64,000 bases of DNA from Eledone cirrhosa (taxonomy: Eukaryota). A program made the translations under genes and the position numbers. Position 1 is the stretch's first letter, and each line of letters starts with the position of its first letter. Location of the stretch: contig OZ024743.1 in assembly GCA_964016885.1 (NCBI GenBank), forward strand, positions 215,388,001 through 215,452,000, written 5' to 3'. The notes beneath the pieces are model-generated. The model did not search any database, was not told the DNA's origin, and worked only from the letters and a program-made list of their open reading frames with translations. This document shows positions 1,620 through 63,597 of this stretch, one piece after another.

Positions 1620-2254
1620 CATTAGCTAAGATCTTTCTTTCCCTTATTACGAAGCATTTTCCCCCTACACATAAACATATTAAAATGTTTAATAGAAATA
1701 CTATTACACTTTTTTACTCTACGACTCCTAACCTACGACATAACATCACAGCTTCAAATTTAGCTAAACTTCCTAGCCGTAGGAACACGTGCAACCCTGT
1801 AGTTAGTACTAACTCTAATTGTAGGAATCGGGCTGATTGCCCCCTATCCGGGAAATGCCTCTCTAGTAACATTGTCTACACATGTAAGGTTGTAACACCC
1901 ACTTCCCGTAGGGCCTACATAGGGTTAACCGCCAATAGTTTCAAGCAGCGTCTTTACATGCATACCCATTCTTTTCGTTACCCTCTAAGAAGGAATATAA
2001 CGTCACTTTCAGCTTATATCTGGAGTCTAAAAGACAACCACACTCAATATAAGTTACGCTGGGAGATCCTAGCTAGGGCTAGATCGTATAACAGAAATAA
2101 AAGACCATGTGACCTCTGCGCCGATGAGGCCCTGGAAATACTCTACGCCACAGACCACATCTTAAACAAAAAATCTGAGGCAATTTCGGCTTGGAAACAT
2201 AAATTGCACAAAACTTTCCTGTATTACAGACCCACGTTATTCCCTAACGGATAG
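1620..2254 (+). pseudogene. GIY-YIG endonuclease C-terminal fragment in upstream partial copy
   Basis: [14 protein letters not shown]…IVYTC…AYIGLT…CDLC…LNKKSE; duplicate of 4870-5504. Confidence 0.9.
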
Positions 2255-3152
2255 TACGATCTATACGTGGATATTTTACGTCTTAAAGTGAGAGCTAAGT
2301 ATATGTTTTGTTTATTCCTTTACTTATTTGCATAGGTAAGTATAAATTACCCGTATGTTTTGTGAAGGTACGTATACATTCTCGTACGTTTATTTGATTG
2401 TAATTTTTTATATATTCTGGTACATAGGGTTTGGCTATGTGAATACGGGAGTTTTGCATATGTGTGAGTATGCAGGTTCGTACGTATGGTGTGTGTGTGT
2501 ATATGTGTATTTCTTGTTTTAGTTGACTTACGTCTCCGAACATTCGTGTATTTATATGTAGGTATGTGTGTGCGCTTGTTATATACGTATGTATTTATTT
2601 ATATACGTTTATATAATTATTTATTTGTATACACGCATACACACACACACATATTTATATGTTCGTGGTTTTGTATACCTATGGTAAGGTTTTGCGTATG
2701 CTTGTGTATGTACGTATTTGTTTGCATGTATGTATTTATTTATTTCTATTACTTCTGTATTGTATTTATTTACTTTGTTCTTAACTCTGTAGCGGAGATT
2801 CATTTGGTCTCCTAGTTAGAATTTTAGTCTACGACTTCTGCTATACCATTTCCGTGGCTTTGTCTTTGCGTGCTATTGGTCTCCACGCTCCACATTGACG
2901 TATTATCTTCGTTTTTTCGTTCATTGCCAGAGAACGTCTCTATGCACCACCTAAGAGAACATTAGTCTACGACCTCTTTTATACCATAAACGTGGTTCTG
3001 TCTTTGCGCGTAATTGTTTTTGACCGCTCCTATTAATGACGTATCATTCGTTTTTTCCAGTTCTTTGCCAGCGAACGTTTCCCCGAACCAAAGTATCGTC
3101 TTCCTGTCTTCCTCCGGGTGCAACGTATTTTGAAATATCCAGTTCTGCGTTT

Positions 3153-3228
3153 ACAGATTGACTTTGTTAGTTTCAGAAGAACCCATTAAGGGTGAAAGCA
3201 GCTATTCTTTGCTTAAACTTTAATCTGT
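3153..3228 (+). ncRNA. HHR-like motif with non-canonical core CAGAAGA (second copy ~6393-6468)
   Basis: acagattg..agttt-CAGAAGA-accc attaa gggt-GAAA-gcagc-TA..aaact..taatctgt, followed by AATAAA. Confidence 0.5.
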
Positions 3229-3373
3229 TATTTTAATAAATATTTGCTCTACGGTTCTTATATATTTGATATATATCTATCCTTCTCGAGCACTCTTTGG
3301 ATTTTAGTCTTCAACTTTATTATTATTACTATTGGGCTCCCTCGGTTGAGCACTCTACTGATTTATATTAATC

Positions 3374-5504
3374 ATGCAGAAACAACATCTGAATATTTCT
3401 ACAAAGAACATACCCGTACCAAGCAGGAAAACATACCTAAAACTCCTGATACAGAAAACAGACGCGTTCATTAAAAGGTTGCGTCGGCGTGCCTTTTCTT
3501 TCGATAATCCACGAAAAGCAGACAACAAAAAGGATAAATTTGGATTTAAAACCTATAATAACCCCCCGTGGAACCCAGCATTGCTACCCTTCGAAAATGA
3601 TATGTTGGATCTCATTCGGAGTATCAAATTTCGGAATAGGAGCAATTCCTTCCAGCAAGACCTGAAGAATAGAATTCGTTCTATTAAGGATTCTAACGCC
3701 GTGCACGTCCATTCCGACAAAACTGGCAACCTATATCAAGTGGAGCGCAGTACTTACCATCAACTACTACATAATGCTGTAACTAAGGATTACCGTAAAA
3801 CTAATCGGGGCGTCATCAATGAAATCAACGATGATGGGTTTAAAATCACATCTGATCTCAACATCCTGGACCGGACCGAACCTCTGGACCCTATTTCTCC
3901 CCACTTTACCCTGAAGGATCACAAATCCAATTTTCCGAACAACCCCTCGATCCGGCTTATTAACCCTACGAAGTCCGATTTTAGGTAGACTTAGTAAAAT
4001 GATTCTTGATAGAATTATTCCTGCAATTAGAAGTTTGGCCCCTCTTGCACTGTGGTACAATTCTGTCGTGGTGATTGATTGGTTCAACGGCATATGTAAC
4101 AAGGAACATTGCCGTTTTATCCAATTCGACATCAACAATTACTACTCCTCCATCACTTTACCACTTCTCCTTAGAGCTATCAATTTCGCTAAAACACTCA
4201 CAGTGGTTAAGGATTTCGAAGTTGATGTCATCCTCAATGCCCGAAAGTCGGTGATTAATTTCGACGACACTATTTGGATTAAAAAATCCAATAGTACCCC
4301 ATTCGACGTGAGTATGGGCGCCAGCGACTCTGCGGAGGTTACTGACCTGATTGGCCTTTTCCTTCTTTTCTCTATCAAGGACGAATTCCCCAACGCGGGC
4401 GGTGGTTTGTACCGTGACGATGGTCTTTTGACCATGACTAAGTGCGGACCTCGTGCTTGCGACAGGTTCAGAAAAGAACTCACAGCCTTCTTTAAAGGCT
4501 TCAACCTCTCTATACAGGTTGAGACCAATCTCTCGGTCGTTAATTACCTCGACGTTACCCTCAATTTATTGAATGGGTTGTATTACCCGTATAGAAAGCC
4601 GAATGATACGCTTAATTACATAAGTAAGCATTCCAACCATCCTGCCAGCATAACCAAGAACCTGATAAGAAACGTTTCGTTGAGGCTTTCCCGTCTTTCC
4701 ACCAACGAGCGTATTTTCAACGACCATTCCACTTATTACAATAAAGCTCTTGCTCGAAGTGGATTTGTCGATAAGGTAGCATATACAGAGTACGAAAATA
4801 GACCTAGAAGAAATAGATCACGTCGCATTTGTTGGTATAACCCGCCATATAATATGGAGGTGGACACACCATTAGCTAAGATCTTTCTTTCCCTTATTAC
4901 GAAGCATTTTCCCCCTACACATAAATATAGTAAAATTGTTAATAGAAATACTATTAAAATTTCTTACTCTACGACTGCAAACCTTGCACATAACATCACA
5001 GCTTCAAATTTAGCTAAACTTCCTAGCCGTAGGAACACGTGCAACCCTGTAGGTAGTACTAACTGTAATTGTAGGAATCGGGCTGATTGCCCCCTATCCG
5101 GGAAATGCCCCTCTAGTAACATTGTCTACAAATATAAGGTTGTAACACCCACTTCCCGTAGGGCCTACATAGGGTTAACCGCCAATAGTTTCAAGCAGCG
5201 TCTTTACATGCATACCCATTCTTTTCGTTACCCTCTAAGAAGGAATATGACGTCACTTTCAGCTTATATCTGGTGTCTAAAAGACAACCACACCCAATAT
5301 AAGTTACACTGGGAGATCCTAGCTAGGGCTAGATCGTATAACGGAAATAAAAGACCATGTGACCTCTGCGCCGATGACGCCCTGGAAATATTCTCCGCCA
5401 CAGACCACATCTTAAACAAAAAATCTGAGGCAATTTCGGCTTGTAAACATAAATTGCACAACACTTTCCTGTATTACAGCCTCACGTTATACCCTAACGG
5501 ATAG
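3374..5504 (+). CDS. PLE reverse transcriptase-GIY-YIG endonuclease (~709 aa) with a single +1 frameshift at TTTT 3979-3982
   Basis: N-terminal STKNIPVPS; RT motifs FIQFDINNYY, MGASDSAE, YRDDGL; CxCx5Cx5C linker; YIG endonuclease. Removing one T joins ORFs 3374-3988 and 3999-5504 as KSDLGRLSKMILD. Confidence 0.9.
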
Positions 5505-6642
5505 TACGATCTATACGTGGATATTTTACGTCTTGATGTGGGAGCTAAGTATATGTTTTGTTTATTCCTTTACTTATTTGCATAGGTAAGTATATATTAC
5601 CCGTATGTTTTGTGAAGGTACGTATACCTTCTCGTACGTTTATTTGATTGTAATTTTTTATATATTCTGGTACATAGGGTTTGGCTATGCGAATACGGGA
5701 GTTTTGCGTCTGTGTGAGTATGCAGGTTAGTACATATGGTGGATGTGTGTATAAGTGTATTTCTTGTATTTCTTGTCTCCGAACATTCGTGTATTTATAT
5801 GTAGGTATGTGTGTGCGCTTGCTATATACGTATGTATTTATTTATATACGGTTATATAATTATTTATTTGTATATACGCATACACACACACACATATTTA
5901 TATGTTCGTGGTTTTGTATACTTTTGGTAAGGTTTTGCGTATGCTTGTGTATGTACGTATTTGTTTGCATGTATGTATTTATTTATTTCTATTACTTCTG
6001 TATTGTATTTATTTACTTTGTTCTTAACTCTGTAGCGGAGATTCATTTGGTCTCCTAGTTAGAATTTTAGTCTACGGCTTCTGCTATACCATTTACGTGG
6101 TTTTGTCTTTGCGTGCTATTGTTCTCCACGCACCACATTGACGTATTATCTTCGTTTTTCGTTCATTGCCAGAGAACGTCTCTATGCACCACCTAAGAGT
6201 ATATAGTCTACGACCTCTTTTATACCATAAACGTGGTTCTGTCTTTGCGCGTAATTGTTTTTCACCGCTCCTATTAATGACGTATATTCGTTTTTTCCCG
6301 TTCTTTGCCAGCGAACGTTTCCACGAACCAAAGAATCGTCTTCCTGTCTTCCTCCGGTTGCAAAGTTTTTTGAAATATCCAGTTCTGCGTTTACAGATTG
6401 ACTTTGTTAGTTTCAGAAGATCCCGTTAAGGGTGAAAGCAGCGATTCTGTGCTTAAACTTTAATCTGTTATTTTAATAAATATTTGCTCTATGGTTCTTA
6501 TATATTTGATATATATCTATCCTTATCGAGCCCTCTTTGGATTTTAGTCTTCAAATTTATTATTATTACTATAAATATATATATATACATATATACATAT
6601 ATATACATATATACATATATGTACATATATATATATATATAT

Positions 6643-12062: not shown

Positions 12063-12127
12063 TATATATAAACTTATATATATACATATATACATATATA
12101 CATATATATATACACATATATATATAA

Positions 12128-12354
12128 GTGAAGGCGTGTGACTGAGTGGTTAGAGAATTGGATTCACAATATTGAGGTTGTGAGTTCGATTTCTGGACCG
12201 GGCGATGTGTTGTGTCCTTGAGCAAGACACTTTATTTCACGTTGCTCCGACCATGACAGGCAACCGATAGATAGTACTATCAACTGGAAAGACCAACGGA
12301 AACATTGTTTCCTCGGTCCGATTTGACGAAAGTGATCGATTAAAAAGAAAAAAA
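12128..12354 (+). mobile_element. tRNA-derived SINE (CORE-like central region)
   Basis: A-box-like tgactgagtgg, B-box-like gagttcgattt, gtgtccttgagcaagacact, A-rich tail. Confidence 0.75.
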
Positions 12355-15720: not shown

Positions 15721-15750
15721 ATATATATACATATATACATATATATATAT

Positions 15751-15899
<149 letters not shown>

Positions 15900-15934
15900 C
15901 ATATATAAATATATATATATACAAATATACATAT

Positions 15935-15965
<31 letters not shown>

Positions 15966-16002
15966 TACATATATACATATATATATATACAAATATACAT
16001 AT

Positions 16003-16033
<31 letters not shown>

Positions 16034-16194
16034 TTAGAATTGGAGCTCTGAAATAGCAATATATATATGGATGTATATATAATGTATTTTGCAATACACT
16101 TTATGCTTAATTAAATGCATTTTGAAGACCGTAAGCTATTGTTTTAAAGTAGTGACAAATTCACTCACTTTGATCTCAGCAAACAGGGTAGATA

Positions 16195-16242
16195 AGCCGA
16201 CAAGACTTGTTTCGCTTTGGTTGAAGCTTATCAAGGCCAACT
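16195..16242 (-). ncRNA. HHR variant with U3-A8 core (UUGAUAA)
   Basis: agttggcc-TTGATAA-gctt caacca aagc-GAAAC-aa-GTC-tt gtcggct. Confidence 0.7.
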
Positions 16243-16764
16243 GAAAGTCACTGAAAAGTAAGTCTGTTAAGACAAATATGTGTGTGTGTGTGTAGTAGTA
16301 GTACTAAAGAGGTTCATTGTTATCATAATGGTCACTAGGGATGTGTGTGTGAATTGCAGTCATGTTGACAGGTCAACAGTTCAGGTGCCTATTAAAACAA
16401 GTGTGTGTGTGTGTGTGTGTGTCTGTGTGTGTGTAGCAGAGTAATTCGTGGTAGAGGTATCGGGCAGTAGGAATGTGTCTGTACGTGGGTGTGGGATATT
16501 TTAACATGTTAAAAGATATTTTTCAGCTCTTGTCTTATACGGAGAAGTTTGTGTGCGTGTGTGTGTGTTTGTGTTTGTGTGTGTGTGTGTGTGTGTATAT
16601 GTCTCTTTGTATGTTAGTGTACGCGTGTGTATGTGTGTGTGTATATATGTGTGTGTGTTTATGTGTGTATGTGTGTGTGTGTATATATGTGTGTGTGTTT
16701 ATGTGTGTATGTGTGTGTGTGTGTGGGTGGACCAGTATTTTTGTGATACTGGTAAAAATGGTTT

Positions 16765-16845
16765 ACATTGCCTTTCATCCTTACGGGGTCGATAACATAA
16801 AGTACTGGTTAATTGCTGACCTTGTGCCTAAAGTAGAAACAATTA
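16765..16845 (+). mobile_element. partial tRNA-SINE inside the Neptune 3' UTR
   Basis: gcctttcatccttacggggtcgata…gtagaaacaatt; absent from the sister copy near 34710. Confidence 0.8.
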
Positions 16846-18299
16846 TTTGATATTTTCAGTAAAAACGATTCTCTCAATAGAACATCAAAATCCTTAATAA
16901 TAAAAGGTGTGAAATGATATATAGCATTGTCATAACACCAAGGTGCGTGTGAGTCTCCAGATTGTACGTACTGCAAGAGGAATCCATTTGGCCCTGCCGT
17001 ATTGGAATACTTGTGTACAAATATGTATGTGCCCATCAGTGTGCAATGCGTGTGTGCGTATATGCATGTGTGTGTTTTCGGCACGTTTATAGACATCAAA
17101 AGGTATGCAAATGTTTGTATATGTGTTGCACCATAGAACATGTGTGTTTACGTATGTCATTGTGTTTATATGTGGATAGAGATGTATGTAGGATGTATGC
17201 TGATGTAGTTATGTATGTTGACGTCTTAGGGAGAAGTGTTTAGACGGGGTCCGTATTTGTTAATAAAGTGAGATTCCTTGCTGATTCGCTGGGTGTGGGT
17301 GGCATTATCTTTAAATTGGTAGAGGTGAAAGATTCTGAAGTTGGGATGATTTGGGGCGGCACAGGTATCAATGTGTTCACTCAGTGATATTTTCCTGTAT
17401 TCCCGTATTTTAATTTGGGATCTATGGACAGTCATGCGTTGGCGGAGGCTGATTTTGGTCTGTCCTATGTATTGTTCTCGACAACCTGTGCAAGTTAATA
17501 CATATATTAGAGTTTCTGATGCGTATGTGAAATTGTGTTTTACTATAAAACTTTGTCCTTCTTTGAAATATAATTCCGAACCCTCTATTAGGTTGATGCA
17601 TATGCCAACGTTGGGTCAATCGCCTTTTTTTTACTGTGGGTTTCGTTGTTGAGGTTGGCAGTACTTTAGCATGTGTTAGGACATTTTTCATTGACTTAGA
17701 TTGTCTTTTGCTCTTTATGATATCGTGTGTTCGTAGGATTTGGTTCATTCTATGGTCCTTTTTAACACAGGGATGTTCTGGAGGATGGTGTCAAAGGCCT
17801 CATTGTTGAGGGGATTGTGTGTGGAGATGTATGGAATAGCTTTTAGTTTCGGTTAATTTACTTTAGGGTGTCTAAGGTCCTGGGTACTGAGTTTTAGGGC
17901 ACGTTGGATTCCATTGTCAATTAGTGATGCAGGGTAGTCCCTGCCTATGAGTGTGTCCTTTAGTTCTTGTAGCCGTAAGTAACAGGTGTTTTTATTGGAG
18001 AATATAGTACAGATTCTCTTGGCTAAGTTGTAGGGAATATTAATTTTTACGTGTCTAGGGTGGCAAGAGTTGAAAGGAAGATATTGCTTTGAGTCTGTGG
18101 TCTTGTAGTATATGTCTTTCTATTTTTTTGTTATGAATCTTAATGAGGATGTCGAGTAAGGGGAGTTGTTGATGGCTGTATTCCATCGTAAAGTTAATAT
18201 TCGTGTTGAGCCCATTTATAAGGGTGTGAAATTCTTTAAGTTTCTCGATGTTTTCGTGCCAAAGGATGAAGCAGTCATCTAGATATCGCTTCCAGTTCT

Positions 18300-18750
18300 A
18301 CATGACTGTCTTTTTAACACCCCACTCCTCACTGATTAATCTTGATGTCACGTGATTGATTCTTTTGAATTTGCCACTGACCGGGAAGGTAGTGAAATTT
18401 TCAGTGTCTTGAAATTTAGTCCGCGCTAGCTTTTTTTCCATTCACTGAATTATTTTTGTTTGAGTTCCCTTAGTTCGATTATCGCCTGGGATCTCAGCAG
18501 AGAATTGACTCCCTGATGAAGAAAGGAATCATCCATGGTTTTGAACACTATGTATATCCCCTTTCAGAAACTAATTAGTTGGAGTGAAACTTATATAAGT
18601 AAGTTAATTATTATAATTTTCTTATTTTACGTCTTTCATATAATTGTTCTACATTTTTGTATTGAAACACAAAGTTAGTAAGACAATACCTATATCTTGC
18701 TACCATAAGTATACTTCTGTATAAATATGTTGGTAGATATACTAATTCTT

Positions 18751-18752
<2 letters not shown>
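18300..18752 (+). mobile_element. non-coding HHR monomer family E (5'-truncated)
   Basis: Homologous to 46929-47957. Ends in (TA)n. Confidence 0.85.
18508..18585 (+). ncRNA. type I hammerhead ribozyme
   Basis: actcc-CTGATGA-a gaaagg..cctttc a-GAAAC-taatta-GTT-ggagt. Confidence 0.8.
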
Positions 18753-18818
<66 letters not shown>

Positions 18819-18819
18819 T

Positions 18820-34831: not shown

Positions 34832-34886
<55 letters not shown>

Positions 34887-35028
34887 TACATACATATATA
34901 TGCACATATATTTTTTTGTATTGCACCATAGAGCATGTGTGTTTACGTGTGTCATTGTGTTTATATGTGGGTAGAGATGTGTGCTGATGTAGGTATGTAT
35001 GTTGACGTGTGTATGTTGTGGGTTCGTG

Positions 35029-36660
35029 TTAGGGAGAAGTGTTTAGACGGGGTCCGTATTTGTTAATGAAGTAAGATTCCTTGCTGATGCGCTGGGTGTA
35101 GGTGGCATTATCTTTAAATTTGTAGAGGCGAAAGATTCTGAAGTTGGGATAATTTTGGGCGGCACAGGTATCAATGTGTTCACTCAGTGGTATTTTCCTG
35201 TATTCCCGTATTTTAATTTGGGATCTATGGACAGTCATGCGTTGGCGGAGGCTGTTTTTGGTCTGGCCTATGTATTGTTCTCGACAACCTGAACAAGTTA
35301 ATACATATATTAGATTTTCCGATGCACATGTGAAATTGTGTTTTACTATAAAACGTTGTCCATCTTTGAAATAGAATTCCGAAACCTCTATTAGGTTGAT
35401 GCAAATGCCACAGTTGGGTCTATCGCATTTTTCTACTGTGGGTTTCGTTGTTGAGGTTGGCCGTACTTTGGCATGTGTTAAGATGTTTTTCATTGACTTG
35501 GATTGTCTTTTGCTCTTTATGATATCGTGTGTTCGTAGAATATGGTTCATTCTATGGTCCTTTTTCAATACAGGGATGTTCTGGAGGATGGTGTCAAAGG
35601 CCTCATTGTTGAGGGGGTTGTGTGTGGAGATGTATGGAAGAGCTTTTAGTTTTGGTTGATTTACTTTAGGGTGTCTAAGGTCCTGGGTACTGAGTTTTAG
35701 GGCACGTTGGATTCCATTGTCAATTAGTGATGCAGGGTAGTCCCTGCCTATGAGTGTGTCCTTTAGTTCTTGTAGCCGTAAGTAGCAGATGTTTTTATTG
35801 GAGACTATAGTACAGATTCTCTTGGCTAAGTTGTAGGGAATATTAATTTTAACGTGTCTAGGGTGGCAAGAGTTGAAGGGGAGATATTGCTTGGAGTCTG
35901 TGGGCTTGTAGTATATGTCTGTTTCTATTTTTTTGTTATGGATCTTAATGAGGATGTCGAGGAAGGGGAGTTGTTGATGGCTGTATTCCATCGTGAAGTT
36001 AATATTTGTGTTGAGCCCATTTATAAGGGTGTGAAATTCTTTAAGTTTTTCGATGTTTTCGTGCCAAAGGATGAAGCAGTCATCTAGATATCGCTTCCAG
36101 TTCCTTTCAATGTGTAAGTTGAGGGTGTTTCCAAATTTGTTTAGGACTTTATTGTAGAGGGTGATTTCCAGTTATCCCATGACTAGGTTGGCATAAGTAG
36201 GGGCTGTTTTCGTTCCCATAGCGGTCCCAGATTTCTGCCTGTAGGGTTTGTTATTGAAAACGAAGTAATTGTTCTCCAAGATAAATTTGAGTCCCTCTAT
36301 CACGAATTCTTTTTTGATGCGTTGTGGGAGTTCATTGTGGAAATTATCCAGCCAGAATTGGATAGCTTCTATTCCTAGGTTGTGGGGGATGTTGGAGTAT
36401 AGGTTGACTACATCGAACGTCACTAGTAGGGTTTGTTCAGAAAGTGGCATATTAGGGAGGTGATTGAGCATATCTTGGTCGTCCCTTATATAGCTTTTGA
36501 TGTGCTTGAGGAAGGGTTTGAGAAGGGTATCAATGAAGTTGCTAAGACGGTGCGTTTCGCAAGCGGGGCCTGCTATTATAGGTCTTAATTTGAGATCATT
36601 GGGTGAGGGGACATTGATGACTATGTCTGTGGCTTCCTTGCATGCCTTACTGATTGATTC
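35029..36660 (-). pseudogene. Neptune RT-GIY-YIG ORF with one in-frame TAA at 36172-36174
   Basis: FDVVNLY, GTAMGTKTAPTYANLVMG*, WKRYLDDC, CxxxxCxxC linker, LIYVLTCSGCREQYIGQT. Both ORF pieces are in the same frame. Confidence 0.9.
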
Positions 36661-45952: not shown

Positions 45953-46851
45953 ATCTGAGTTGGAGAAATATTACAGTTGGAATTGACGTTTTCAAATTGA
46001 CGAGACTATGATGGCATTGGATTGGTAAAAATTATCAAAACAAAAACAAATATTGACCCGTAGGCTATTTATTTATAACTTAAGTTAGATTAAATTAGAT
46101 AATGCTAAAAAATATATATTCGAAGATGCAAACTAATAATGTAATTATATAACCAAGAATAACATTTTCAATTACTAAATTCGTAGAAAATTAATCCTAC
46201 TTTATGTATACAATTTAAGTTAGAAGATATTATGAGCGTGGATATTATGAGATTGGGCACGCCTGTTTCCATACGGTATGAGAATGTTTTCCTTGCCATG
46301 GGTGATTAATTCACAATGTTCCAGTTTTCTCTTATATATAGATGGCAAACGGAGAAGGAATATTGCGAAAATCGGTAAAGCTCATGGCAAGATGCTTTGG
46401 AACATTTGTTCCTGCCCAGAGCGCTCTAAATTCTAATACTTCCCAAATCTTATATTTTTCTGTTTCTAGGTTCGAAACAATAGAACAATTTCTATTGGCT
46501 GAATTTCTAAATCATCGGACAAAATGCCGCAAAATTTGGTCCTACTAAAATCATATCAAATCAAGCTATTAACTCCTTCATCCGTAGACATAAATCGTCA
46601 CTTATGGATGTTCGTAGTGATGCACCAACTGCTGCGGGCAATCGTTATATATGGTGTTACTTTCAGCTTACCTTTTGTTCATACTTAATGCAATATGAAT
46701 GATATCTAGCTTATCGAATGTAAAGTTTCCTTATCACACTGGGTATATCTAGAGTAAATTGATGCAGTCTGAGGCTGGACTATGCCGGTTGACCTGCTCA
46801 CTTATACTTAGTGAACCACAAGAACAGACACGTATATATGCATCTCTCTCC

Positions 46852-46928
<77 letters not shown>

Positions 46929-46932
<4 letters not shown>

Positions 46933-58105: not shown

Positions 58106-58457
<352 letters not shown>

Positions 58458-58534
58458 GTAGGACACTTCGGTTATTTTTCATTTTGTAAAAAAACCTCAC
58501 TTTCTAATACATACTCACCACACGAGGACCGAAA

Positions 58535-61500
58535 ATGCCACCAAAGTCTCAACATAACAACAACTCACTGAACCAGGACATCTTAAATGAACTCAAAGAG
58601 ATTTCCTCAAAACGCTCAATTTTGACCAACAAAGTGGACCAAATACACATCTATAAAAAAGGACCCCACGAAGAAACAGAAAATACCTAAGAGACAAATA
58701 TTACTCCAGCATTAACTAAACTAATCGAAACCATTGAAACAGCAATGCTCCAAAAGCTGGAACAGCCATTAGAACCCAGTCTACGAGATGTCCTCTCAGT
58801 GAAAAGCACCCTAATCAATATATGGACTCAAAATCACACAGCCCGCAAATTCGCCTTTTGGAATCTCCTAAAAAATAATGGCAAGACAGACATATATGAA
58901 AAGTGGATAAAATCTACCCCAATCATCCTCCCCAAAAAACTCCAGATAAAACCCATCTCGTATGATCCACAAAACCAACAAAGACTTAGGGAAAAGATGG
59001 CGTTAGAAACATTTAAAATAGAAATAGAACTGTTACGAAGAAAACTCCAACGAAGAAAAATTCAAGTCACTCGACCAACAGATGGTAACAGATATTTCAA
59101 GGCACTCTGAAAGCCTACTCTATGGAAAAACCTTAAAACTTAAAACTTTGGAAAGAAAACTGTGAGGATGAAGAACTAACATCCCTCCAGCGATGGTAAA
59201 AAAGCGCCACCTGGTTCAACAACTACGAAATGGATTTCAAAAATGAACAACATACAGATAACCCATTTTTAAAACAAACTAAAACTCACACACCTAATGC
59301 ACAACAAATAACAAAAAAAGTAACAAAACATGCACAACAAATAACAAAAACAAGTAACAAAACGTCCAACATACCCCCAGCAAAACTATAACGATAATCC
59401 CAGAACCCATAGACAAAACTATAACCCTACTAACAAAAACCGAAGATCCTCCAACACAAGTCAGGACTCGATCCGCAGATCACAACCCACGCAAAACCTA
59501 TTCCAAAATCGTAGACCCCTGCCCACACAGAGCCTATTCCAAAATCGTAGATCCCAACCCACACAAAGGAACAAATTCTACAACCCGGAATATCAATAAA
59601 CCGAGCCTTAATACCTCCGAAACTTCTATACAAGACCACACAACAACAAGGGAAATGCCCTTAGATATAATAATACCATTGAAAAAACATTCCAGAAAAA
59701 TCATTTTTAGACCAAGGCTACAGGACCCACGAAACCCGGTGGCACAAACCGATTTTGAAAAACCAAAAATAATCAACCTTTCAAATACAAACCTCTCAGC
59801 ACAACAAGTAAAAATTCTATCCAAAGGACTGAAATTCACACCAACACCACAATACTTTAACCTCAATGAGATAAATGACGATATCTCACACTTCTGTAGA
59901 AAATTACGTCTCACAGAGGAATTCTTTGATAAGGAGAATAACGACCAATAAATTGTACGGAATAAAAACAGCTACAACCCAACAAAAGGTACAAACAGAG
60001 TTCTGGACACATTTTCTGACCACATAGCCACTTTCCCATACAATGAACTACCGCAACCTAAACCCAAACCCAACACGAGTCGAAAGGAATGGGAGATTAT
60101 CCATGAACTAAAAAAACAATACGGACATTATAACTAAGGAAGAGGACAAGGGAAGTACTGTTGTCATTATGGATGCTGAAAAATATAAAATGCTATGCTC
60201 TCTCTCTTACAAAATACTAATTACTATGCAAGAGTAAACAACTACCAGCAATCAAAAACAATGATCAGATTAAACACGCTGATTTGTCGATACCAGGAAG
60301 ACTTAACTAAAAAGGAACGCGATTATTTAACACATTTTGAATACAAAACCAGCAACCTTTACGGACTTCCGAAGATCCACAAGTGTAAAATAATTAACGA
60401 TGCCTGTAAACAATCTGTCTCAACCTGCGTGAACACACAATACCCCACATACCTTAAATTAAGACCAATTGTAGCAGGCCCACAATGTGAAACACACAGA
60501 CTGAGCAACTTTATAGACATACTACTAAAACCAATTCTCAAACACATACCAAGCATTGTAAGAGATGATCTGGACCTCTTAAACCACCTCCCCAAACATG
60601 TCAACAACGATACTATTATTGTGTCTTTCGATGTAGTGAATCTCTACACAACGATCCCACACCAATACGGACTACACATAATAGGATTCTGGCTAGAGAA
60701 ATATCCCAATGAGATATCTGACAGAATAGAAAAAAAAGCTTCACTTCCGAGGGATTAAAATTTATCTTACAGAACAACTTTTTTTATTTCGATGGCAGTA
60801 CTTACAAGCAAATATCTGAGACTGCGATGGGTACAAAAGCCGCTCCGACTTATGCCAACTTAGTCATGGCATACTTAGAAGTCCAGATTTATGAACAGTC
60901 CAAATCAAAATACGGATTGAAATTCCACAAATATTTATCAGAGAATTGGAAACGCTACTTGGATGATTGTCTCATTCTTTGGCCCCACACATTCGACCAA
61001 CTGAATGCTTTCACAAATTAAATAAACGGCATCAATTACCACATCCAATTTACAATGGAATACAGCCATTTCTGGAAATCTTAATCTTAAAAAAAGACAC
61101 AAATATTGAAACTGGCATACACTACACACCAACAGATTCCAAACAATACATGCTATTCACCTCCAACCATCCAAAGCACACGAAGACGAACATTCCTTTT
61201 AACCTAGCAAGAAGAATTTGCACAATTGTCTCCAATTATGAAACGCGAAATAAAAGACTTCAAGAATTAAAGGAAATTCTCTCGAAAGACAGTACCCACC
61301 ATTACTAATAAATAATGGAATAGAAAGTAATAGGCATTGATGAATTACGAAAACAGAAACAAATTCAATGTACGTCCAATATTCTATCATATATCTCAAT
61401 ACACAGCCCAAGAAATGCGGAAGCTTACAACACTATTCACAAGAACATCCCACTACTGAGACAAGATCCAAGAATGAAAAATAGCCTTTGAAACACACAA

Positions 61501-61990
61501 AATAATCAAAAGCAAAAGACAACCGAAATCACTGAAAACATTACACACCAATGCCAAATTACCTGCGACAAACCCACAACCAACTGTCAAACAATGTGGT
61601 TGCTCTAATTGTGTAACCTTCACTTACCTCATTGAAGGCAACACGTATACATTTGAATCAGGAAAATATTTTGCTGGAAAAATTCACTTCACTTGCTCAT
61701 CAAAAAATCTATGTTATGCCATTGAATGTAAAGGATGCAATGAAGATTATATAGGACAAACTAAACTCACACTCAGAAATAGAATGACAGTTCATCGCCA
61801 ACAAATACGAGATCCAACCACGAGACAGATACCACTAAGCGCACATCTAGACATTTGCGCAAGTAATAAGACACCCACATTCCAAGTCTTCCCAATTTAC
61901 CTTTGCGCTGACAATACAACAGAACAAATACGAATAAATAAGGAATATATGTTTATTCAAAAATATAGACCAGCATTAAATATGGTTTAA
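58535..61990 (+). pseudogene. Neptune RT-GIY-YIG ORF with multiple frameshifts and stops
   Basis: IINLS…LSKGLKFTPTP, YGLPKIHK, LRPIVAG, SFDVVNLY, MGTKAAPTYAN, RYLDDC, YIGQT. Confidence 0.9.
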
Positions 61991-62634
61991 TATACATTAT
62001 GTCAACACCAGAACATTCTAACCATCCAAACAGACACACCCACACATAACACCTTCTATTTTAGAAAATAAAAACCCGAACTAAATGAACCTTAACATAC
62101 GTTTGCGCTGACAATACAACAGAACAAATACGAATAAGTAAGGACAATATGTTCATTCAAAAATATTCCTAATGACGGAATCATTTTCCTAAACACACAC
62201 ACACACACACACACAAAATATATATTCTCTTCATCTGAACATGCTAACCATACTCCCACACACACATAACACCCCACACACAAACAACTCCCTCCCCCAT
62301 TTCTGCTAATAGAATCATTTTCCTACACACACACACACAATATATATATATTCTCTCCATCTTAACATACTCCCACACACACACACATAACACCCATATA
62401 CACAGACGCACAACTCCCTCCCCCATTTCTACCAATAGAATCATCTTCCTATACACGCATACACACACACACACACACATACAATTAAACATACATATGT
62501 CTACTTCCTTTATTTCAATAGAAAATCGGAACTCTGACACCCCAGCGAACTAGCCATATTCACTGAACCAGAACAATTCTCCCATCCCATTTCTCTTGAC
62601 CATTAACTTTTGCTTGTCATAATATTCTCTAAAT

Positions 62635-63220
62635 GGCTACAAAAGTAATTCCCAAATACGGGCGCGGAACTTGTTCACGTGACAGTCATGATTTCATTTA
62701 TAACCAATCAAATTGCATTTTTAAAAAAAAAGCCTTCGGGAGCCACTTTTTTATTGTCATAAAATTCTGTAAAAGGCTACAAAATAAATTCCCAAATACG
62801 GGCGCGAAATTTTAATGAACTTTTTCACGTGACTGTGGTAATTTCATTTATAACCAATCACATTACATTTTAAAAAAAAAGCCTTCGTGAGCCACTTTTT
62901 TTATTTTTATAAAATTCTGTAAAAGGCTACAAAATAAATTCTCAAATACGGACACGAAATTTTAATGAACTTGTTCACGCGACAGCCATAATTTCATTTA
63001 TAACCAATAAAATTACATTTAAATAAAAAAAAAGCCTTCGTGAGCCCCTTTTTATAAGTAAAAAGTAATTCAAATTCTCATATACGAAAAAACAACATGA
63101 GCCCCCCCCCCCCCCCCTTGTTTGAAGAACTTTGTAACACGAACTGGCGCGAAATTTATTATACTTATTGAACAACCAATTAAATTACTTCTGTAAAAAC
63201 CTGGCGTTTCGAGCCACTTT
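62635..63220 (+). repeat. 3-4 x ~145-bp tandem repeat with GGCGCGAAA, CACGTGAC, CCAAT and GAGCCACTTT motifs
   Basis: ggctacaaaa at 62635, 62776 and 62925. Confidence 0.8.
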
Positions 63221-63293
63221 TATCCATATTAAACAAGTAACATTCAAAGACCAACCAGATGTGAGAAAAACCACAGACCCTCCATCTCAACGC

Positions 63294-63332
63294 TACTTTT
63301 GAAAAGCAGAAAAACTGCGAAACCGTTAAAGG
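63294..63332 (+). ncRNA. minimal HHR variant with U3-A8 core (UUGAAAA)
   Basis: ctt-TTGAAAA-gcag aaaaa ctgc-GAAAC-c-GTT-aaag, followed by AATAAA. Confidence 0.7.
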
Positions 63333-63597
63333 AACCAAATAAACATATATATTTTTTTAAAAATAAGACTCCAGTTGCATTGTCGATTTCATCTTTTTTT
63401 CCTTATACTTTCGCTCGTGTCGGACACCTCGGTTATTCTTCATTTTGTAAAAAAACCTCACTTTCTAATATATATATATCTATCTATATATATAATATAT
63501 ATTATACATCTATCTATATATATATATATATAATATATATTATATATCTATCTACCTATATATATATAATATATATTATATATCTATCTATCTATAA

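What the first reader, a model, noticed from the sequence alone, without database searches (positions are those of the whole stretch)
16036..18752. Chimeric tails-out insertion: autonomous Neptune fused head-to-head with a non-coding family E monomer
Seen: the minus-strand Neptune is truncated in RT at ~18297 and joined within ~3 nt, with no TA tract, to a plus-strand 5'-truncated family E copy. Both 3' ends face outward into (TA)n. This is the geometry of the homotypic inverted pairs, but with two unrelated RNAs. Inference: two templates were reverse transcribed at one target in one event, which points to Neptune as the mobiliser of family E.
Basis: partly seen in the sequence, partly recalled or inferred. 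Interest (0 to 1): 0.82.

Follow-up and report, generated by a model that had tools for sequence, protein, structure and literature searches.

The report
Mixed-family tails-out Penelope-like insertion
A broken Neptune retrotransposon is joined head-to-head to an unrelated non-coding repeat between two TA runs, with a third repeat at its outer end; such mixed pairs recur in this genome and likely form when one insertion copies two different RNAs, but they do not show which retrotransposon moves the repeat.

Summary
The junction is in the assembly. Minus-strand Neptune ends at 18298/9, four codons before YLDD. A 5-6 nt linker without TA follows, then family E (18305-18752) and (TA)n. No read confirmed it.

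Every TA-targeting family tested has two fixed 3' ends, and its own inverted pairs use one long and one short end. Mixed head-to-head pairs occur at 8 of 210 E-anchored loci. All 8 TA-flanked mixed pairs with readable ends (7 with E, 1 with R316) follow that rule (p=0.004), so two-RNA insertions likely exist.

This locus is long+long, so it needs at least two events. Most likely a Neptune/E insertion came first and R316 later overwrote Neptune's end.

'Neptune mobilises E' is not supported. E's 8 partners are Hydra-type elements (4), Neptune (1) and repeats with no ORF seen (3). Opposite-orientation two-RNA chimeras are known for L1, and two start sites are known for a Poseidon element. I found no report of cross-clade Penelope-like pairs in the searches run.

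The parts
15721..16035 (.). Left (TA)n target tract
   Evidence: TRF; sequence
16036..16242 (-). 3' 207 nt of R316, a 316-nt tandem non-coding repeat. Its long end faces the TA tract. It takes the place of the last roughly 450 nt of Neptune's 3' UTR.
   Evidence: 97.6% to the natural unit in L095; 1911 exact hits of its end motif, many spaced 316 nt apart; end types
16186..16241 (-). Type I hammerhead-like motif of R316 (core UUGAUAA...GAAAC...GUC). The 5' side of stem I is cut by the joint.
   Evidence: Rfam Hammerhead_HH9, 22.8 bits, E 0.0016, below the gathering score of 52; the same hit in each unit of L095
16243..16244 (-). Same-sense R316/Neptune joint, at most 2 nt
   Evidence: no other copy among the 40 candidates scored
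16245..18298 (-). Internal fragment of a Neptune-type Penelope-like element: RT from 4 codons before YLDD, thumb, degraded Zn linker, GIY-YIG (17244-17615), stop near 17229, part of the 3' UTR. Broken by stops and frameshifts; both natural ends missing.
   Evidence: 92.6% to the second copy at 34883-36103
18299..18304 (.). Head-to-head linker (T)ACATG, no TA. The 9-mer ACATGACTG across the joint also occurs in Neptune's 3' UTR.
   Evidence: 9-mer found in 29 of 2000 shuffles; homotypic E pairs have 1-30 nt fillers in 21 of 58 and TA in none
18305..18752 (+). Family E, unit positions 75-522 of a 522-nt tandem non-coding repeat, long end facing the TA tract. It holds hammerhead core words CTGATGA-A-GAAA near 18513 without helix II.
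18753..18819 (.). Right (TA)n target tract

Best explanation
A cut Neptune body lies head-to-head with family E and carries an R316 piece at its outer end; most likely one Penelope-like insertion copied Neptune RNA from one side of a TA break and E RNA from the other, and a later R316 insertion likely overwrote Neptune's outer end. Shown: the three-part anatomy; two fixed 3' ends per family; long+short pairing in homotypic pairs; recurrence of mixed pairs that keep the rule. Inferred: (1) a GIY-YIG/RT complex cuts both strands in (TA)n and primes cDNA from both ends, one at the long start site and one at the short; (2) normally both cDNAs come from one RNA or source gene, but in about 4% of E insertions the second end uses another family's RNA; (3) the two cDNA 5' ends are joined with a few filler bases; (4) here Neptune would have supplied the short end, now lost; (5) a younger single-arm R316 insertion in the left TA tract joined its 5' end into Neptune's 3' UTR, deleting about 450 nt. 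Which enzyme did step 1 is not shown; Hydra-type elements are at least as good a candidate mobiliser of E as Neptune.
For: Long+short rule in homotypic pairs: 44 of 46 pairs of six families, 22 of 23 R316 pairs, 31 of 33 pairs of a second E subfamily, 13 of 13 rows of a 593-nt family. Both arms come from one subfamily in 45 of 48 E pairs (4.0% within vs 10.9% to other arms) and 40 of 47 R316 pairs. Mixed TA-flanked head-to-head pairs at 8 of 210 E-anchored loci, vs 1.7-2.1 expected from 25 heterologous joints and flank coverage (P 0.0004-0.0014). All 8 mixed TA-flanked pairs with readable ends are long+short (P 0.004); one of these was predicted beforehand (note). L322 is an independent Neptune(short)/E(long) pair. 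Rare variants: R316 2/206, Neptune 25/1069, E 15/448, so R316 looks youngest and Neptune and E do not differ significantly (P 0.29). Single arms joined into a 3'-truncated same-sense neighbour occur elsewhere (L263, L086, L379). In vitro, a Poseidon protein cleaves and extends both strands and starts RT at two adjacent sites (PMC11167929, main text read).
Against: This locus itself is long+long, and Neptune's own end, the one datum that would test the rule here, is gone. The age difference is not significant on rare variants (P 0.18; 0.03 on all differences; R316 vs the rest P 0.11-0.22). Eight of the 25 heterologous E joints go to DNA with no library match and at most a few matches among fetched loci (my count), so deletion-type joints are common and could have made this one. 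The 9-mer at the joint could be the stump of a deleted inverted Neptune arm. One mixed pair (L278, no TA tract outside) is long+long, and the second pre-registered test (L323) was unreadable; counting them as misses gives 8 of 10, P 0.055. The partner families were named after I saw them, and Z and the 593-nt family were not in the coverage library. Nearly all anchored loci are from contig C1 and only exact end motifs were sampled.
Confidence: 0.6

Rival explanations
1. Independent insertions plus deletion. Neptune was already present. E and R316 inserted separately in the TA tracts on either side, and each 5' end was joined into Neptune with loss of target DNA, or the centre of two neighbouring inverted pairs was deleted later.
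For: Two long outer ends. Joints of E to apparently unique DNA are common. TA-targeting elements often sit side by side in one tract (L040, L083, L240). ACATGACTG at the joint matches Neptune's 3' UTR in the orientation of an inverted arm, with 4 nt shared with E (29 of 2000 shuffles).
Against: Neptune covers about 1% of control flank, so a deletion joint should land in an oppositely oriented Neptune only about 0.5% of the time. E is not younger than the Neptune arm. Other mixed pairs keep the end rule 8 of 8 times, which deletion does not predict.
Confidence: 0.27
2. One event with three templates: RT started on R316 RNA, jumped to Neptune RNA, and met E cDNA from the other end.
For: Same-sense jumps between families are seen, some onto or near the long end of the next RNA (L352, L437). 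Ages are not significantly different on rare variants.
Against: It needs long+long ends, seen in few homotypic pairs and in 0 of 8 clean mixed pairs. R316 has the fewest changes.
Confidence: 0.08
3. One reading: Neptune protein is the specific mobiliser of family E. This is a separate question from the origin of the locus.
For: Shared (TA)n target and similar family ages (medians 2.1% and 2.2%). Two Neptune/E joints are known (this one and L322). Neptune is abundant (4765 exact end hits).
Against: Partners of E in 8 mixed pairs: Hydra-type F1620 three times, another Hydra-type family once, Neptune once, three repeats in which no ORF was seen. E has no homology to Neptune beyond 13-21 nt. Of 147 Neptune 5' ends only the E-ascertained one meets E. 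The single Neptune case has P 0.115 by chance.
Confidence: 0.25
4. Misassembly joining three repeat copies.
For: No contig or read bridging 18298/18305 was listed in four runs.
Against: Those runs lack this copy's private letters, so they do not seem to hold this copy. The joints have no shared homology for an assembler to slip on. The same kind of joint recurs at other loci of a chromosome-scale assembly.
Confidence: 0.04

Closest known systems
Inverted pLTR with optional 30-40 bp tail in Penelope-like elements (PMC8557442, PMC3846280; passages read)
   Same: 5'-truncated inverted copy joined head-to-head, a tail at one end only, (TA)n targets. Neptune's two ends here differ by about 35-38 nt.
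   Different: Those passages describe both arms from one family, and PMC3846280 reports no cross-mobilisation between the two PLE types in its rotifer. Here the arms come from unrelated families, and tails reach 110 nt (E), 157 nt and 183 nt.
Poseidon PAc in vitro mechanism (PMC11167929; main text read)
   Same: Both strands cut and extended; two RT start sites that bound the tail; predicted dimer.
   Different: In vitro the two strands showed no difference in start site, and only the element's own RNA was tested. The genome here shows one long and one short end per insertion, kept even when the RNAs differ.
Antisense RNA/LINE-1 chimeras attributed to twin priming (tRNA, 5S, U5, mRNA; PMC13174262, passages read)
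   Same: Two different RNAs in opposite orientation at one target, read as priming from both ends of a break.
   Different: APE-type LINE-1 with poly(A) and TSDs that prove a single event. Here the enzyme is GIY-YIG, and no TSD can be read in (TA)n.
Animal non-LTR retrozymes as non-autonomous PLE derivatives (PMC7229834, passages; bioRxiv 10.64898/2026.07.22.740005, parts 1-3 of 5 read)
   Same: Non-coding tandem units of a few hundred nt with a type I hammerhead, proposed to be moved by PLEs. R316 fits; E has core words only.
   Different: That evidence is co-occurrence and pLTR homology. E and R316 show no homology to the PLEs tested here, and the parts read do not describe tails-out or mixed-family insertions.

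Membership tests
Neptune-clade PLE | RT followed by a C-terminal GIY-YIG in one ORF | tested here: met
   RVT_1 and GIY-YIG in the 751-aa frame of sister copy L127; GIY-YIG E 1.1e-6 and YLDD in this copy
Neptune-clade PLE | CX2-5CxxC linker before the endonuclease (shared with Nematis, absent in Poseidon; PMC8557442) | tested here: met
   CDRPNCGIC in two sister copies; degraded in this copy
Neptune-clade PLE | [quoted passage not shown] | tested here: met
   LIYVLTCxGCREQYIG...H...H
Neptune-clade PLE | (TA)n target and inverted 5'-truncated arm with a one-sided tail | tested here: met
   4765 exact end+TA hits; 88 of 147 5' ends meet an inverted Neptune arm; 21 of 22 pairs long+short
Neptune-clade PLE | Phylogenetic placement in Neptune rather than Nematis | not tested
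   No reference PLE proteins were held; the assignment rests on motifs
Neptune-clade PLE | Hammerhead in the pLTR | tested here: inconclusive
   A regex for the core found none in the Neptune part of three long copies; variant cores could be missed
Neptune-clade PLE | This copy is autonomous (intact ORF, own ends) | tested here: not met
   5'-cut in RT, stops and frameshifts, own 3' end missing
Non-LTR retrozyme (family E) | Non-coding, in tandem units | tested here: met
   522-nt unit in partial tandems; no frame of 100 aa wholly inside it
Non-LTR retrozyme (family E) | Type I hammerhead in each unit | tested here: inconclusive
   Core words TGA(T/C)GA-N-GAAA in 121 copies, but no helix II and no Rfam hammerhead hit
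Non-LTR retrozyme (family E) | Homology to a PLE pLTR | tested here: inconclusive
   No match beyond 13-21 nt to the Neptune, P60k or Hydra-type pieces held; other PLE families of the genome were not sampled
Non-LTR retrozyme (R316) | Tandem units, each with a type I hammerhead | tested here: met
   316-nt spacing; HH9 match in both units of L095 and in the window copy, below the gathering score
Non-LTR retrozyme (E and R316) | Self-cleavage and circular RNA | not testable with these tools
   No RNA holder listed
Single-event two-ended (twin-priming-type) insertion | Opposite orientation, both 3' ends at the target, no target DNA at the joint | tested here: met
   the left outer end belongs to R316, not Neptune
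Single-event two-ended (twin-priming-type) insertion | One long and one short end, as in this genome's single insertions | tested here: not met
   E long and R316 long; met at 8 of 8 other TA-flanked mixed pairs
Single-event two-ended (twin-priming-type) insertion | Equal age of the parts | tested here: inconclusive
   Rare variants 1.0%, 2.3%, 3.3%; P 0.18, or 0.03 on all differences
Single-event two-ended (twin-priming-type) insertion | Target-site duplication or empty allele | not testable with these tools
   A TSD cannot be read in (TA)n; the genome has no relatives here; the flanks are repeats

The most novel reading that the evidence does not exclude
TA-targeting Penelope-like machinery is a two-ended integrase whose two DNA ends have fixed roles, one long start and one short start, and each end can load RNA of a different family. 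Neptune, Hydra-type elements and several non-coding repeats therefore share one pool of templates and enzymes across clades. Mixed tails-out pairs such as this one would be a genome-wide record of that exchange and a way to map which RT serves which non-autonomous RNA.
Probability: 0.45. Interest if true: 0.78.

Novelty: new variant of a known kind. Interest (0 to 1): 0.57.

Why it matters
How Penelope-like elements make their inverted, one-tailed insertions is named as an open question in PMC8557442, and mobilisation of retrozymes by them is so far argued from co-occurrence and homology. The end rule gives a TSD-free test for single events in microsatellite targets. Mixed pairs that keep the rule suggest that the two ends of one insertion can use RNAs from different clades. 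That makes the partner question testable by counting junctions and by in vitro assay. It also warns that one chimeric junction does not identify a mobiliser.

Tried and rejected
- Whole-window Rfam scan: the 150 listed of 398 hits were mostly microsatellite matches to miRNA models and included no hammerhead.
- Folding of 100-nt pieces: z-scores -0.2 to -0.6, uninformative.
- Searching with a query spanning both families to pull out other chimeras returned only Neptune-side hits.
- Public runs: no RNA holder listed. Laying X1-X3 and X16 gave no listed piece across the joint, and these runs lack this copy's private letters, so they neither confirm nor refute it.
- 'R316 is this Neptune subfamily's normal end': rejected.
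- 'E is the pLTR of an autonomous element': no support among the loci held.
- 'The RTE lines in the window move E': not pursued; no RTE partner was seen at an E joint.
- First-strand hairpin copying as the only source of the inverted arm: by eye, inverted arms often reach further 5' than the main arm; not counted.
- The pre-registered test on L323 was unreadable: its end lies 54 nt inside the short end.
- Earlier-findings look-ups returned nothing.
- Seven paper searches listed no paper on mixed-family inverted PLE pairs. The library lacks most subscription papers, and I opened no supplements, which may bear on the novelty claim.

Full report
OBSERVATION. The minus strand of 16245-18298 encodes the end of an RT (NWKRYLDDCF), a thumb, and a GIY-YIG domain. 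It is broken by stops and frameshifts. Sister copies continue where this copy stops: the match ends at 18298, or at 18299 in 15 of 29 copies. After (T)ACATG, family E starts at 18305 and runs to 18752, followed by (TA)n. The linker is therefore 5-6 nt with no TA. No second copy of this joint was among the 40 candidates scored in each of two searches. Sister copies have a CX4CxxC linker, CCHH and a 751-aa RT+GIY-YIG frame. These are the motifs that PMC8557442 gives for Neptune and Nematis (passages). I built no tree.

A THIRD PART. The normal Neptune 3' end is the one at window 33857 (4765 exact end+TA hits). Here it is missing. Of 49 Neptune loci given to, 47 cover the spot and all run on into Neptune's own UTR. 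This copy switches at 16243-16244 to 207 nt that are 97.6% identical to a separate 316-nt tandem family, R316. R316 has a hammerhead match (HH9, E 0.0016, below the gathering score). The structure is therefore (TA)n - R316(-) - Neptune(-) | E(+) - (TA)n.

FAMILY E. E is a 522-nt non-coding unit in partial tandems, with 869, 387 and 1673 exact hits for three end motifs. It holds hammerhead core words but no helix II and has no Rfam hit. It shows no homology to Neptune beyond 13-21 nt. Of 90 loci anchored on its long end, the script classed 58 as inverted pairs with TA at both ends, 14 as single arms with TA, 15 as other and 3 as unresolved.

THE END RULE. Each family tested has two fixed TA-adjacent 3' ends, and its own inverted pairs use one of each. 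The counts are 44 of 46 pairs in six families, 22 of 23 R316 pairs, 31 of 33 pairs of a second E subfamily, and 13 of 13 rows, two of them the same place, in a 593-nt family. The two arms of a pair come from the same subfamily in 45 of 48 E pairs and 40 of 47 R316 pairs. This fits the known one-sided tail (PMC8557442, PMC3846280; passages). It also fits the in vitro finding that a Poseidon protein cuts and extends both strands and starts RT at two sites bounding the tail (PMC11167929, main text). In a target where TSDs cannot be read, the rule serves as a test for single events.

MIXED PAIRS. Among 210 E-anchored loci (90 + 70 + 50, with a few insertions sampled twice) I counted 25 joints to non-E, non-microsatellite DNA. 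I set aside rows that proved to be short self-inversions, (GA)n or (CA)n ends, a short filler next to TA, or an N gap. Eight of the 25 are head-to-head with another family whose 3' end lies in TA: L207, L214, L228, L408, L428, L449, L451 and L460. Library families cover 13.65% of control flanks, so 1.7-2.1 such joints are expected from random deletion (P 0.0004-0.0014). The families were named after the fact. Two of 64 R316-anchored loci (L275, L278) join a second Neptune-like family, P60k. All 8 TA-flanked mixed pairs with readable ends, 7 with E and 1 with R316, are long+short (P 0.004). I wrote down two predictions first: L460 met its prediction, and L323 (= L228) was unreadable. L278 is long+long and lacks an outer TA tract. 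With L278 counted as a miss the tally is 8 of 9 (P 0.02); with both it is 8 of 10 (P 0.055). L214/L322 is an independent Neptune(short)/E(long) pair with different breakpoints. Two-RNA insertions are thus likely real here, at about 3.8% of E loci (95% interval 1.7-7.4%).

THIS LOCUS. Its outer ends are E long and R316 long, which breaks the rule, so at least two events are likely. Rare variants are R316 2/206, Neptune 25/1069 and E 15/448 (P 0.18; P 0.03 on all differences). R316 is typical of its family, while the Neptune and E parts are both about twice their family medians. The comparison copies were picked by similarity to this locus, so those medians are biased low. The best fit is a Neptune/E insertion followed by an R316 single-arm insertion that deleted Neptune's end; such same-sense overwrites are seen at L263, L086 and L379. 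Against this reading, joints of E to apparently unique DNA are about as common as mixed pairs, and the 9-mer across the joint also occurs in Neptune's UTR (29 of 2000 shuffles), as a stump of a deleted inverted arm would. I give 0.6 to the two-step model, 0.27 to independent insertions, 0.08 to one three-template event and 0.04 to misassembly. Four public runs gave no bridging piece and lack this copy's private letters.

WHO MOVES E. E's 8 partners are F1620 three times, a second Hydra-type family once, Neptune once, and three repeats in which I saw no ORF but which I did not characterise fully (F41k, Z, the 593-nt family). F1620 (window 1620-6572) and that second family have the CxCX5C linker, and F1620 has DKT and no cysteines inside its GIY-YIG core; PMC8557442 lists these features for Hydra. 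Same-sense joints link E to Hydra-type pieces (L040, L047) and to Neptune-like ones (L041, L379, L417). Of 147 Neptune 5' ends, 88 meet an inverted Neptune, 32 meet TA, and only the E-ascertained L322 meets E. One Neptune partner has P 0.115 by chance. Shared target and similar ages keep Neptune possible, but the joint does not single it out.

KNOWN AND NEW. Opposite-orientation chimeras of LINE-1 with tRNA or 5S RNA are attributed to twin priming (PMC13174262, passages). Retrozymes are proposed to be non-autonomous PLE derivatives (PMC7229834, passages; bioRxiv 10.64898/2026.07.22.740005, parts 1-3 of 5). Minimal PLE hammerheads lack helix III, not helix II (PMC4209133, passages). Seven searches listed no report of mixed-family inverted PLE pairs or of an end rule that holds across families. 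The library is incomplete and no supplements were read.

VERDICT. The junction is real in the assembly and more complex than reported. The locus is a weak witness by itself but points to a recurring and testable class of mixed insertions. It is a new variant of a known kind; interest 0.57.

Noticed in passing
L309:1000-1530: A Neptune tails-out pair in which both arms carry the same captured tRNA-Met gene piece at the same junction (ARAGORN). This suggests both arms were copied from one chimeric RNA or cDNA.
   Followed up: partly
window 1620-6572: Hydra-type Penelope-like element (CxCX5C, DKT, YRDD, C-terminal GIY-YIG-like domain, 1713-nt direct repeats) with no significant Pfam hit; the most frequent mixed partner of E.
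   Followed up: partly
window 58457-63468; L275/L321, L278: Second Neptune-like family (P60k, about 64% DNA identity to the first). Both head-to-head mixed joints of R316 in 64 loci are with it, although it covers 0.6% of control flank, so it is a candidate mobiliser of R316.
   Followed up: partly
L375, L389, L422, L425, L445 and others; window 46843-46929: E long ends are sometimes extended by (CT)n before the TA tract (14 of 122 terminal ends), which looks like telomerase-style stuttering on the terminal CT; this reading is inferred.
   Followed up: partly
L352, L437: Same-sense joints in which another family's arm continues onto, or within a few bases of, the long end of R316 or E, as expected for a template jump.
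   Followed up: no
L062, L063, L066, L069: Four single E arms begin at the same base, at the hammerhead core words; three share flanks and may be one duplicated event.
   Followed up: no
L460, L511-L540: A further 593-nt tandem TA-targeting family with ends 157 nt apart and no hammerhead core by regex.
   Followed up: partly
R316 loci L261-L290, L327-L360: The R316 hammerhead core reads TTGATAAG in 60 of 65 copies matched: a U3-A8 pair in place of C3-G8, so probably a compensatory change. That such a core stays active is recalled, not tested.
   Followed up: no
L136, between the TA tracts about 2700-3170 nt from the Neptune-sense start: Small inverted pair with a canonical-looking hammerhead core, related at its end to family F41k.
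   Followed up: no
L053, L438: A SINE-like repeat (window 12127-12333) also abuts E head-to-head without TA at the joint; ARAGORN finds no tRNA gene in these loci.
   Followed up: partly
window 18277-18298; L275, L214: Three mixed joints cut the Neptune-type arm at or shortly after the YxDD motif: 4 codons before it here, within it in L275, and about 28 codons after it in L214. This may be chance or an RT pause site.
   Followed up: no
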